DNA from: Chrysomallon squamiferum
Taxonomy: Eukaryota; Animalia; Mollusca
Direction: 5' to 3'
DNA: 64,000 nt
Assembly: GCA_012295275.1 (NCBI GenBank)
Contig: CM022675.1
Span: 9,424,001 to 9,488,000 of the forward strand
Numbering within the stretch: position 1 is the first letter of the stretch; each line of letters opens with the position of its first letter. Of this stretch, positions 43,061 through 52,517 are shown in pieces. The notes below the pieces were generated by a model. It was not told the origin of the DNA. It ran no database searches and saw nothing but the letters and a program-made list of their open reading frames with translations. Both the position numbers and the translations under genes were made by a program.

Positions 43061-43111
43061 ATGAAGTTGATGAGAGGTTTAACACCAAGCACACTGAAGC
43101 AGAACAAATCG
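43061..43111 (+). CDS. NDUFA4: NDUFA4 paralog A coding exon 1 (MKLMRGLTPSTLKQNKS)
   Basis: ACA-ATG start context; 17 codons; donor G|GTAACA at 43112; aligns with exon 1 of paralog B (MRGLTPSTLK vs MRSLTSTLR). Confidence 0.85.
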
Positions 43112-45578
43112 GTAACATACATTATTATTTTTATATTTCAATATTTGTAATGTCATAAATTCTAAAAAATAAAAGATAATAACTGCACGTGTCGGAAAAT
43201 GTGCACGCATTCGTGCAGCTTGACTTGCTGTTTCAGTCCGTGCCGAAATACAGTTTCTATTTTCAAAAAAGATTTTTTACGAGATTATATTTAACCTAAA
43301 CTTGTAATTTAGTTATTCGTAATAAGTCGTAACATATATTTCACCATTTAAGGTTTATGAACGATTTAATTTCTTATACAGTTTCTCATAGTATAAGAAA
43401 TGAAGAAAAGTCTAAAGGTAGTAAAAACTGAAATGCCCGAAGCGTTTTTTTTTTTTCAGTCATTTTCCTTTTAGAACGTAAACAAAATTTTAGCTTTTCT
43501 GCAAAATCTAGGAATATTATGAAGGAATGATAGTAATTCGAAGTTTAGCTATAGAAATGTTGCCACAACATAGTGTTTGGTAATTTGTTGCTCGTATCTG
43601 GGCTTTTATCGAATATAAAAATGATATACTATAAGAAAAATGCCGCGAGATACTGAGATAACATTAATATTTAAAGATGTTTGGTTTGAACCATTATCTG
43701 AATCGACCTCAATGTGGTCACTATGGCCATGTGTATATGTGTGTGCAGAATACATCATAGAAATATCATGGTATATGGTTACTGAGTAAACTTAAATCAG
43801 CTGAACAAATACAGTATATGGGTCTATCCTGGTTACAAAATTCTTCGGCCATTAGTGTTTTGCATGTCAGAAATGTCTAGTCATTGCAACGGTGGAAGAT
43901 TCTCACTGACATTAAACGCCTTCATCACTAACTTGCACAAACAGTTCTGTATCTGTATTCAGTACCCTCTGAAATAGTTTTTGAGCAATATTTTTAATAC
44001 TATGAATTTTAAATGTTTGGGGTTTATTTTAAATGATGCACTGTCTAGAATATTCTTTGGCTTTAAGATATTTTAATATCTATAATACAGGGTACTCCTC
44101 TTCTGTCTGTGGGATGTTGTATAAGACTCTTGTTGCTAACTGAAAAGAGTAACCCATGAGATTCTGGCAGTGTTTCATCTCTCAACTTCTGAATAGTCCT
44201 TAACAATGTTTCATGACTGTAAACCATTTAAAATGCATATATGAAGAGAGCCGTCCATTTAATCATGGTTTTTTCTTTTTCTCTTGACATCTTAGTCCTT
44301 AACAACATGTCCTATAACTGTTAATAAATGTTGGAGCATAAAGGGTTAAAACATTTTTTTCTTTCAGTTGATTCCATTGTTTTCCTTCGTTGTACTTGGA
44401 TTTGGTGGAGCTATGGGATATCTAACCAGACTGATTACCACAGGAATAGATGTATGGTAAGTGGTGACAACCTGATTTGCAGTAGGACAAACCATCAAAA
44501 AGGATAAAAGTGGCTTGTTTAACAACTTTAAAATCGATAATCCGTGTTGATTTTTTAATTGAATTTTTGATCCATTTAGTTTATATGCCAAGAATAAGAT
44601 GTACAAAAAGAATATTGTAAAATTGAATCATTCAGTAATTGTTAAATTGCATCTGATTTTTGAACATTGGACAGAACAACCGATTGATTTTTTTTTTATT
44701 GCTAAATTTTGACTTGTGGTTTCAATTTCAGCTGGGATAAAAAGAACAAACCACATCCCAATCTAACTCATCCACCAACTTACCAGTACAAAGTAAGTTT
44801 ATTTATATTTTTGTTTGAATGTATGTATGGAGGTATAGGATAGATGTAGATGGAGAAATAGATGTACATATAGATATACATACATAATGTAAATATATGT
44901 ATATAGATATATAGATAGATGTATCTTATAAATATCTTGAACCATTGATAGTAACACTGAACTTGGATAAAGCAATGATTAAAATACAAGGTTAAGAATT
45001 TGTCCATTTTTGTTTTTGTTAATTAGTAAAATGGTTTTTTTTCCCCACATTTTAGTATATTAATTTTTAGTGTTGACTAATTGGTTACGACAAAGAATAG
45101 GTTAAATGTTTAGTTTATACTAATGTTATAATAACCAGCAAGTAAAATGTGAATAATTATGCATCCTGGGTATGAAATTCGGTATCGCATTAAGTAAAGT
45201 TTTTCTATATATTATTTACATATCTTTGAGTGAAACTGGTATTTGAAAAGGTACATTACATATTTATATAAATAAATTCTAGTTAAACATATAAGCAGAC
45301 AGTTAAATTGTAAATTTAAAATACTCTTATCGTATAGTGATGTAAAAATATGTATAATGTACAGAATGACAAATTTACTTTTTATTGCTTGGGTTTAAAT
45401 AGATGGTCTTTAAATCTAACAGTTGAGGGTTAAAAACCTATCGTTAACTATAATTTTCACTCTGTATATATTTAACACTGAATTAAAGATAACTCCTTTT
45501 AAATTTGTTTTTCAGTTCTATTCTCCTCTACGAGATTATTCCAAGGAGGCATTCCCAATTGAGAGGCCAATGATTTAA
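43061..45578 (+). CDS. NDUFA4: NDUFA4/COXFA4 (MLRQ) cytochrome c oxidase subunit, paralog A; join(43061..43111,44368..44456,44732..44792,45516..45578), 87 aa
   Basis: Manual splicing gives MKLMRGLTPSTLKQNKSLIPLFSFVVLGFGGAMGYLTRLITTGIDVCWDKKNKPHPNLTHPPTYQYKFYSPLRDYSKEAFPIERPMI*. It matches the family hallmarks SLIPLF, one TM helix, YLxRL, DVCW and QYKFYS..DYSK (human NDUFA4 has HPSLIPLF...YLLRLA...PDVCW...QYKFYSVNVDYSK). All introns are GT-AG and the phases (0,2,0) keep the frame open. Confidence 0.95.
44095..44365 (+). mobile_element. Possible degenerate 3' part of a gastropod SINE-like interspersed repeat in intron 1 of NDUFA4 paralog A
   Basis: CTGTCTGTGGGATG..TTGCTAACTGAAAAGAGTAACCCATGA..TAGTCCTTAACAA..AAAACATTT resembles, from recall only, an abundant gastropod short repeat. 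TAGTCCTTAACAA is internally duplicated. Not verified by search. Confidence 0.4.
44368..44456 (+). CDS. NDUFA4: NDUFA4 paralog A coding exon 2 (transmembrane helix)
   Basis: Acceptor ttttttctttcag, 89 nt, donor GTAAGT; encodes LIPLFSFVVLGFGGAMGYLTRLITTGIDV. Confidence 0.95.
44732..44792 (+). CDS. NDUFA4: NDUFA4 paralog A coding exon 3
   Basis: Acceptor tttcaatttcag, 61 nt, donor GTAAGT; encodes (C)WDKKNKPHPNLTHPPTYQYK. Confidence 0.95.
45516..45578 (+). CDS. NDUFA4: NDUFA4 paralog A coding exon 4
   Basis: Acceptor ttgtttttcag; encodes FYSPLRDYSKEAFPIERPMI then TAA. Confidence 0.95.
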   Translation, partial: FYSPLRDYSKEAFPIERPMI

Positions 45579-52400: not shown

Positions 52401-52517
52401 ATACTCACATAAAACATGTAATTTATCTTATTACCTTTTTTTTTTTTCCAGTTCTACTCTCCGGTCCGAGATTACTCTAAGGAAGCGTTCCCATCAGACA
52501 GACCAAAGATCGACTAA
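49422..52517 (+). CDS. NDUFA4: NDUFA4/COXFA4 (MLRQ) family subunit, paralog B; join(49422..49484,51324..51412,51936..51996,52452..52517), 92 aa
   Basis: Spliced product MTKVKVRMMRSLTSTLRSHKPLLPLLAFVGIGVFGAMCYLVRMLTQHPDVSWNKSRNPSPNLTLPPTYQYKFYSPVRDYSKEAFPSDRPKID*. Internal exons have the same sizes (89, 61 nt) and phases as paralog A. The frame is intact and splice sites are canonical. Confidence 0.95.
51324..51412 (+). CDS. NDUFA4: NDUFA4 paralog B coding exon 2 (transmembrane helix)
   Basis: Acceptor ttgtttatag, 89 nt, donor AG|GTGAGT; encodes LLPLLAFVGIGVFGAMCYLVRMLTQHPDV. Confidence 0.95.
51936..51996 (+). CDS. NDUFA4: NDUFA4 paralog B coding exon 3
   Basis: Acceptor tgtttcag, 61 nt, donor AAG|GTAACT; encodes (S)WNKSRNPSPNLTLPPTYQYK, visible inside track ORF 51745..52047. 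Confidence 0.95.
52452..52517 (+). CDS. NDUFA4: NDUFA4 paralog B coding exon 4
   Basis: Acceptor poly-T-ccag; encodes FYSPVRDYSKEAFPSDRPKID then TAA. Confidence 0.95.
   Translation, partial: FYSPVRDYSKEAFPSDRPKID

What the first reader, a model, noticed from the sequence alone, without database searches (positions are those of the whole stretch)
43061..52517. Hidden tandem pair of diverged NDUFA4/COXFA4 genes: candidate invertebrate complex IV subunit-swap system
Seen: two intact four-exon genes with identical internal exon sizes, not called in the ORF track. Hand alignment gives 15/29 identity in the TM exon but 30/41 over exons 3-4, so both appear to be under constraint while the membrane helix has diverged. 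Established: vertebrates swap NDUFA4 for NDUFA4L2 (hypoxia, HIF-1) or C15orf48/MOCCI (inflammation) to tune cytochrome c oxidase, with miR-210/miR-147b repressing NDUFA4. Inference: this lineage-specific tandem duplicate could be an independently evolved version of that switch, relevant to hypoxia, sulfide or immune stress.
Basis: partly seen in the sequence, partly recalled or inferred. Interest (0 to 1): 0.85.

Follow-up and report, generated by a model that had tools for sequence, protein, structure and literature searches.

The report
Duplicated respiratory subunit gene in snail
Two intact, long-diverged copies of the gene for NDUFA4, a small subunit of respiratory complex IV, sit side by side in what is likely a snail; the first is spliced into RNA and is likely the everyday copy, the second is likely a tissue-restricted alternative, and a stress-driven swap like that of vertebrates remains untested.

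Summary
Two intact four-exon NDUFA4/COXFA4 genes (A, 87 aa; B, 92 aa; 53/86 identical) lie in tandem with 89- and 61-nt internal exons and GT-AG introns. Both hit Pfam B12D and carry NDUFA4-type, not C15orf48-type, motifs. All three introns of A are spliced in RNA contigs; B's transcription is not shown. A and B are sisters next to the vent snail Gigantopelta, though older duplication is not rejected. Pairwise dN/dS is 0.12-0.20 with near-saturated dS. A's body is strongly CpG-depleted (o/e 0.25) and B's is not (1.18): the mollusc signature of a housekeeping gene beside a restricted one. The limpet Patella has a separate, likely tandem pair, so such duplication recurs. The stress-switch reading gained no direct support: no miR-210/147 site in A's 3' region, no excess of HIF or NF-kB motifs at B. 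Best reading: constitutive A plus a tissue- or stage-restricted isoform B competing for the one COXFA4 site. A real, modestly interesting new member of a known kind; interest 0.33, not 0.85.

The parts
43061..43111 (+). Gene A coding exon 1 (ATG; basic N-terminus, 4 K/R, no D/E)
   Evidence: RNA contigs cover it from 42969 and join it to exon 2 in 3 of 4 runs
44368..44456 (+). Gene A exon 2 (89 nt): transmembrane helix; near-invariant Pro after the helix replaced by Ile (residue 44)
   Evidence: Pfam B12D 23.8 bits; Pro in 179 of 180 homologs; an RNA contig of run X3 reads this exon with 0 differences
44732..44792 (+). Gene A exon 3 (61 nt)
   Evidence: joined on both sides in 4 of 4 RNA runs
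45516..45578 (+). Gene A coding exon 4 to TAA
45579..47285 (+). Gene A 3' untranslated region (extent inferred; about 1.7 kb), CpG o/e 0.15, AATAAA at 47201 and 47265, no miR-210/147 seed match
   Evidence: RNA contig pieces reach 47195-47285 (contigs cannot fix an end)
49422..49484 (+). Gene B coding exon 1 (ATG; basic N-terminus, 6 K/R, no D/E; in-frame Met 8/9 match the usual family start)
51324..51412 (+). Gene B exon 2 (89 nt): transmembrane helix; keeps the Pro, changes a Leu kept in 175 of 180 homologs to Met (residue 43)
   Evidence: Pfam B12D 34.9 bits; PDB NDUFA4 chains E 0.0018
51936..51996 (+). Gene B exon 3 (61 nt)
   Evidence: 78% nucleotide match to A exon 3 region
52452..52517 (+). 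Gene B coding exon 4 to TAA
   Evidence: 76% nucleotide match to A exon 4 region
43700..47285 (.). CpG-depleted, microsatellite-free body of gene A (21 CpG against 82.5 expected; TpG+CpA 1.36-fold), read as long-term germline methylation
49422..52517 (.). CpG-undepleted, microsatellite-rich body of gene B (60 CpG against 53.7 expected; 17% simple repeats)

Best explanation
An old tandem duplication left two intact NDUFA4/COXFA4 genes in what is likely a gastropod; A is spliced into RNA and is likely the constitutive subunit, while B is likely a tissue- or stage-restricted isoform that would take A's place at the single COXFA4 site of complex IV in the cells that make it. Shown: gene anatomy, family, splicing of A, purifying selection on the pair, the CpG contrast. 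Inferred: that CpG depletion marks A as housekeeping and B as restricted (by analogy with oyster), that both proteins are single-pass inner-membrane proteins that bind complex IV (by homology), that they are mutually exclusive (one chain N per complex in solved structures), and that the switch is set by cell type rather than stress; the male germ line is the leading candidate. Divergence sits in and just after the membrane helix, so a swap would change helix packing against the enzyme, tuning its stability or activity.
For: Anatomy; Pfam B12D; PDB NDUFA4 chains at E 1e-27 to 1e-25 with a profile built from these exons and three homologs; A spliced in 4 of 4 RNA runs; dN/dS 0.12 (NG86, ML) to 0.20 (LWL85), bootstrap 0.05-0.29 over the 216 of 300 replicates that were not saturated; neutral simulation leaves B's frame and splice sites intact in 1.8% of runs at 0.2 and 0.03% at 0.5 substitutions per site; CpG o/e 0.25 vs 1.18; in oyster, low CpG o/e marks housekeeping genes (Discussion of PMC2996979) and methylated genes vary little between tissues (abstract of PMC3840415); mouse Coxfa4l3 replaces Coxfa4 after meiosis and fly COX4L is testis-specific (passages of PMC11012351); in fly all tissue-biased nuclear-mitochondrial duplicates are testis-biased (abstract of PMC5737092); exon 2 identity 52% vs 73% for exons 3-4 reverses the ortholog pattern (62.5% vs 53%; 1 of 66 mollusc pairs as extreme).
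Against: An undepleted CpG level is also the window's default (whole-window o/e 0.98), so it says B is unmethylated, not where it is expressed. dN/dS is pairwise and cannot be split per copy. The exon-2 contrast alone is not significant (Fisher p 0.08) and the 66 pairs are not independent. The presumed everyday copy A, not B, carries the oddest change (Pro to Ile, shared by 1 of 180 homologs). In humans only 36% of tissue-biased nuclear-mitochondrial duplicates are testis-biased (abstract of PMC5737092), so the germ-line guess is weak. Binding to complex IV was not tested.
Confidence: 0.45

Rival explanations
1. B is a stress-induced replacement (hypoxia, sulfide or immune challenge), an independently evolved counterpart of vertebrate NDUFA4L2; the first reader's reading.
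For: B has the unmethylated signature that in oyster marks immune and inducible gene classes. A-B identity (53/86) is like human COXFA4-COXFA4L2 (about 61%, passage of PMC13392013). The nearest named homolog is from the vent snail Gigantopelta (65% to A, 61% to B), so low oxygen and sulfide are plausible for the lineage. PMC7793259 reports no NDUFA4L2 homolog in protostomes (section 14), leaving that role open.
Against: No miR-210/147 seed match (CGCACA, recalled) in A's 1,707-nt 3' region; RCGTG count upstream of B is 2 against 1.9 expected; no NF-kB-like site. No miRNA at Rfam's gathering score. The MISTR target site is described as vertebrate-specific (passage). Molluscs already have a C15orf48-class gene. 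The intertidal limpet Patella has a pair too, so duplication does not need a vent habitat. The habitat of this animal is not established.
Confidence: 0.22
2. A and B are co-expressed and share the ancestral job (dosage or subfunctionalisation), with divergence by relaxed constraint rather than a switch.
For: Both drift from the family consensus about equally (25 and 24 of 31 conserved columns kept, against 28-31 in seven other mollusc rows); relative-rate test 7 vs 14 unique changes, p 0.19; in exon 2, 5 vs 4.
Against: The sharp CpG and microsatellite contrast between neighbours points to long-standing different chromatin states; no sign of gene conversion (8 of 22 four-fold sites identical, longest identical run 11 nt, P 0.57).
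Confidence: 0.18
3. B was functional for a long time but has recently fallen silent and is an early pseudogene.
For: An intact frame survives a short neutral period: 33% at 0.05 and 11% at 0.1 substitutions per site. B has more unique changes in exons 3-4 (7 vs 1, p 0.07). No canonical AATAAA in the 583 nt after B's stop.
Against: Start codon, frame and all six splice dinucleotides are intact; B scores higher than A against Pfam B12D; low pairwise dN/dS.
Confidence: 0.1
4. B has left complex IV and serves another inner-membrane role.
For: Changes at conserved positions (Leu43 to Met; Gly and Lys of the N-terminal motif).
Against: It keeps 24 of 31 conserved columns, the Pro-Asp-Val loop and the NDUFA4-type C-terminal motif.
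Confidence: 0.05

Closest known systems
NDUFA4/COXFA4 (MISTR1; Pfam B12D PF06522), subunit of cytochrome c oxidase
   Same: 80-90 aa single-pass protein, B12D domain, same 89-nt exon 2 as human, NDUFA4-type motifs after the helix and at the exon 3/4 border.
   Different: Two tandem copies; both, like Gigantopelta, lack the Trp of the family's PEPW-like motif; A lacks the near-invariant Pro.
Vertebrate MISTR circuit: NDUFA4 replaced by NDUFA4L2 (hypoxia) or C15orf48/COXFA4L3 (inflammation, spermatogenesis), with miR-210/miR-147b (PMC7793259, PMC13392013)
   Same: A broadly expressed-looking copy and a restricted-looking paralog at about 60% identity.
   Different: Separate origin (the pair nests among gastropod NDUFA4), tandem arrangement, no miR-210/147 site, no embedded miRNA found, no induction shown.
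Protostome C15orf48/MISTRAV homologs (Octopus XP_014772094.1, Pomacea PVD36559.1, as listed in S3 Table of PMC7793259)
   Same: Same Pfam family; show that molluscs already hold a second B12D gene.
   Different: Different class: in the paper's alignment they have Y-[SA]-L then K-x-D-V-R and end in K-L/M-[IVF]-[TNV]-[IM]; A and B do not.
Patella caerulea SNE40_009913 / SNE40_009914
   Same: Two NDUFA4-class proteins with consecutive locus tags and accession numbers, longest contig of equal length: likely tandem.
   Different: They form their own clade (99/89; 96/93), with one long branch; a separate duplication is favoured.
Testis-specific OXPHOS duplicates (fly COX4L, mouse Coxfa4l3)
   Same: Duplicate of a nuclear-encoded complex IV subunit beside a ubiquitous parent (passages of PMC11012351).
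   Different: B's tissue is unknown.

Membership tests
NDUFA4/COXFA4 class of B12D | Pfam B12D domain above cut-off | tested here: met
   exon 2 of A 23.8 bits, of B 34.9 bits, cut-off 21.5
NDUFA4/COXFA4 class of B12D | Small protein with one hydrophobic helix after a short basic N-terminus | tested here: met
   87 and 92 aa; best 19-residue hydropathy 1.84 and 2.20; no acidic residue in exon 1
NDUFA4/COXFA4 class of B12D | NDUFA4-type motifs (Y-L-x-R after the helix, D-V-x-W, Q-Y-K-F-Y) and grouping with named NDUFA4 proteins | tested here: met
   compared by eye with the published alignment; no C15orf48 or vertebrate NDUFA4L2 row was in my trees
NDUFA4/COXFA4 class of B12D | Conserved intron positions | tested here: met
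   89-nt exon 2 as in human c.43-c.131; exon 3 not compared
NDUFA4/COXFA4 class of B12D | Physical incorporation into complex IV | not testable with these tools
   no host COX subunits held; needs BN-PAGE/MS
C15orf48/MISTRAV/COXFA4L3 class | Class motifs seen in protostome and vertebrate MISTRAV rows | tested here: not met
   absent from A and B
C15orf48/MISTRAV/COXFA4L3 class | miR-147 precursor embedded in the gene's 3' region | tested here: not met
   no Rfam hit at gathering score; one chance-level hit, E 0.23, in a simple-repeat stretch of B intron 3
MISTR-like stress swap | Constitutive copy bears a miR-210/147 response element | tested here: not met
   0 matches to the recalled seed match in 45579-47285; other miRNAs not excluded
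MISTR-like stress swap | Paralog induced by hypoxia or inflammation | not testable with these tools
   no condition-resolved raw reads offered; motif counts at chance level
MISTR-like stress swap | Housekeeping copy plus restricted copy | tested here: inconclusive
   indirect only: CpG o/e 0.25 vs 1.18; A spliced in 4 of 4 runs
Lineage-specific tandem duplicate | The two copies are each other's closest relatives | tested here: inconclusive
   A+B 97/87 and 92/81; AU does not reject A+Gigantopelta (p 0.21) or B+Gigantopelta (p 0.12); B+Patella 9914 p 0.04, A+Patella 9913 p 0.07

The most novel reading that the evidence does not exclude
A snail lineage related to vent-dwelling Gigantopelta evolved its own complex IV subunit swap: B is induced by low oxygen or sulfide and displaces A, convergently with vertebrate NDUFA4L2 but without miR-210, and gastropods have built such pairs at least twice by tandem duplication (here and in Patella).
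Probability: 0.2. Interest if true: 0.65.

Novelty: new member of a known kind. Interest (0 to 1): 0.33.

Why it matters
Isoform exchange at the COXFA4 site is described as a vertebrate circuit (PMC7793259). A gastropod pair with an apparent housekeeping/restricted split, plus a second pair in Patella, offers a cheap test of whether that exchange evolves repeatedly and what triggers it. If B proves to be a germ-line isoform it is one more case of a known pattern; if it is oxygen- or sulfide-induced it would be a first invertebrate case in the literature I could search. Either way two small genes need annotating.

Tried and rejected
Expression of B: in the four RNA runs laid (X1-X4, one study, contigs only) no joint across any B intron was listed and the bin holding B exon 1 had zero depth in all four. 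In X2 the bins holding B exons 2-4 had some depth (4.7, 2.6, 13), which may be low-complexity matches; the table of pieces was cut (239 rows not shown), so this cannot be resolved. A part without cover is no evidence of silence, and contig depth cannot rank genes, so none of this is used for or against any reading. No whole genome is held, so further paralogs elsewhere, including a C15orf48-class gene, could not be sought. The 50%-representative search with B's exon 2 gave 2 hits, one a beetle NDUFA4 and one spurious. The first profile search was swamped by insects. An exact 24-nt B pattern and the Gigantopelta protein found nothing in metagenome contigs. miR-210/147, miR-7, HIF and NF-kB motifs (recalled) gave no support; four TGACG sites upstream of B against 1.1 expected (P 0.04) were dismissed as one of 70 motif-region tests. 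Gene conversion between exons 3-4 rejected. Assembly duplicate and retrocopy rejected (unalignable introns, introns present). The ESM Atlas added only the B12D label. Three look-ups of earlier scan findings returned nothing. No structure or complex was predicted: the spliced proteins and host COX subunits were not available as inputs.
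Full report
Observation. Reading 42000-53900 and building the models by script gave two head-to-tail genes on the + strand. A: 43061-43111, 44368-44456, 44732-44792, 45516-45578 (87 aa; introns 1256, 275, 723 nt). B: 49422-49484, 51324-51412, 51936-51996, 52452-52517 (92 aa; introns 1839, 523, 455 nt). Internal exons are 89 and 61 nt in both, all introns are GT-AG, both frames are intact. Identities are 15/29 in exon 2, 30/41 in exons 3-4 and 53/86 overall. blastn between the two loci finds strong matches only at exons 3 and 4, and tblastn finds no third copy in the window.

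Family. Each exon-2 peptide passes the Pfam B12D cut-off. A profile of six exon pieces and three homologs hits four PDB NDUFA4 sequences at E 1e-27 to 1e-25 and nothing else below E 0.5. Human COXFA4 exon 2 runs c.43-c.131, 89 nt (variant names in passages of PMC13392013). Against the alignment in supplement file 6 of PMC7793259 (passages), A and B show NDUFA4-class motifs and lack those of the C15orf48/MISTRAV class. That paper (abstract, passages, section 14, both parts of supplement file 3, rows of file 2; its image PDF and .doc supplements were not readable) lists both classes in Octopus and Pomacea and finds no NDUFA4L2 in protostomes. So molluscs already have a second B12D gene of another class.

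Transcription. Five runs hold part of the region, four recorded as RNA and from one study. Laid as contigs, they join A's intron 1 in 3 of 4 runs and introns 2 and 3 in 4 of 4, exactly at the predicted sites; pieces reach from 42969 to 47285, suggesting a 3' untranslated region of about 1.7 kb (inferred; contigs fix no end). B's transcription is not shown; what the runs gave over B is recorded under Tried and rejected and is not used as evidence.

Relatives and origin. The best named homolog is Gigantopelta aegis (65% to A, 61% to B), then Patella and other molluscs; the neighbouring gene's best named hit is a chiton. The animal is therefore likely a gastropod; species and habitat are not established. 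In a tree of 47 rows (45 picked by hand from 191 proteins held, after dropping two rows with long N-terminal extensions, plus A and B; 86 columns, flagged as few), A+B has support 97/87, A+B+Gigantopelta 99/94, and the two Patella caerulea proteins form their own pair at 99/89. With 18 rows A+B falls to 92/81; AU tests do not reject A+Gigantopelta (p 0.21) or B+Gigantopelta (p 0.12), and give p 0.04 for B+Patella 9914 and p 0.07 for A+Patella 9913. So the duplication is most likely confined to this branch, may predate the split from Gigantopelta, and is probably separate from Patella's. The Patella proteins have consecutive locus tags and accession numbers; I did not see their coordinates, so tandem position is inferred. 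Only the best 120 of 326 hits were listed, so other duplicates may be missed.

Selection. Over the 70 collinear codons of exons 2-4, nucleotide identity by codon position is 51, 58 and 30 of 70; dN 0.25-0.27, dS 1.4-2.2, dN/dS 0.12-0.20 by three methods (YN00 failed); 216 of 300 bootstrap replicates gave 0.05-0.29 and 84 were saturated. B would rarely stay intact after 0.2 neutral substitutions per site (1.8%) but often after 0.05 (33%), so long-term function is supported and very recent silencing is not excluded. Eight of 22 four-fold sites are identical and there is no long identical run, so no recent gene conversion. Against 180 homologs (of 204 proteins held; 75-95 aa, 12 excluded by name; mostly arthropods), A keeps 25 and B 24 of 31 conserved columns; seven other mollusc rows keep 28-31. 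A replaces the Pro after the helix (179 of 180) with Ile; Babylonia and the octopus row of the published alignment have Leu there, so loss is rare but not unique. B replaces a Leu kept in 175 of 180 with Met. Exon 2 is normally the better-kept part (62.5% vs 53.2% over 66 mollusc pairs); A-B reverses this, matched by 1 of 66 non-independent pairs, Fisher p 0.08 on its own. Both copies contribute (5 vs 4 unique changes in exon 2).

Regulation. A's body and 3' region hold 21 CpG against 82.5 expected (o/e 0.25) with TpG+CpA at 1.36-fold; B's body holds 60 against 53.7 (o/e 1.18 masked) and is 17% simple repeat against 0.3% for A. In oyster, CpG-depleted genes are housekeeping and undepleted ones include immune and signalling classes (abstract and Discussion of PMC2996979), and methylated genes vary little across tissues (abstract of PMC3840415). 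The inference is that A is broadly expressed and B is not, but the whole window is undepleted (0.98), so B's state does not tell tissue-specific from inducible, low or silent. The vertebrate circuit's parts were not found: no miR-210/147 seed match in A's 3' region, RCGTG 2 against 1.9 expected upstream of B, no NF-kB-like site (motifs recalled), no miR-7 match, no Rfam miRNA at gathering score.

How it most likely works. By homology both proteins insert once in the inner mitochondrial membrane and bind the periphery of complex IV late in assembly (passages of PMC13392013). One site means the copies would be mutually exclusive. A would fill it by default; B would fill it where its gene is switched on, and its altered helix would tune stability or activity, as human COXFA4L2 only partly restores activity (1.7-fold against 3-fold, same passages). 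I favour a cell-type or stage switch (0.45), with male germ line the leading guess from mouse Coxfa4l3 and fly COX4L (passages of PMC11012351; abstract of PMC5737092, which also shows the pattern is weak in humans), over a stress switch (0.22), shared dosage (0.18), recent decay (0.10) or a role outside complex IV (0.05).

Novelty. Searches for NDUFA4 with duplicated and gastropod gave 0 papers; with mollusc and hypoxia 3, and with paralog and invertebrate 4, none on this by title (listings only, except passages of PMC8136519, which found few nuclear OXPHOS duplicates in bivalves). The main text of the vent-snail genome paper PMC7736800 has no occurrence of NDUFA4 (passages; its supplements were not read). 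The library lacks most subscription papers. The locus appears undescribed, but duplicated COXFA4-family genes and complex IV isoforms are a known kind, and PMC7793259 already notes repeated diversification of the family. Verdict: real, new member of a known kind, interest 0.33; the stress-swap version has about 0.2 probability and would merit about 0.65.

Noticed in passing
window 57479-60139 (- strand): Two long ORFs (322 and 290 aa stop to stop) that look like two exons of one gene: coiled coil plus C-terminal autophagy-receptor zinc fingers (Pfam Zn-C2H2_12, E 4e-9); a 561-aa chiton protein matches the first ORF and has the same finger. Likely an adaptor of the TAX1BP1/NDP52/AZI2 type (label recalled); a useful synteny marker.
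   Followed up: partly
window 46384-46710: Decayed ~29-30 nt tandem repeat inside A's transcribed 3' region; TGCACT occurs 7 times in that region against 0.9 expected. Probably an old minisatellite; a regulatory array is not excluded.
   Followed up: partly
Patella caerulea SNE40_009913 and SNE40_009914 (P0130, P0163/P0192): A second, probably independent and likely tandem NDUFA4 pair in a limpet, one copy on a long branch with a 3-residue insertion.
   Followed up: partly
window 44368-44456: The transcribed copy A, not B, has lost the Pro kept in 179 of 180 homologs just after the membrane helix.
   Followed up: partly
window 22001-23000: One kilobase with no CpG and very low GpC; probably a satellite or other repeat.
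   Followed up: no
window 48980-49010: Two opposed TGACG-type sites about 420 nt upstream of B's ATG (4 such sites in 1.5 kb against 1.1 expected); weak after multiple testing.
   Followed up: no
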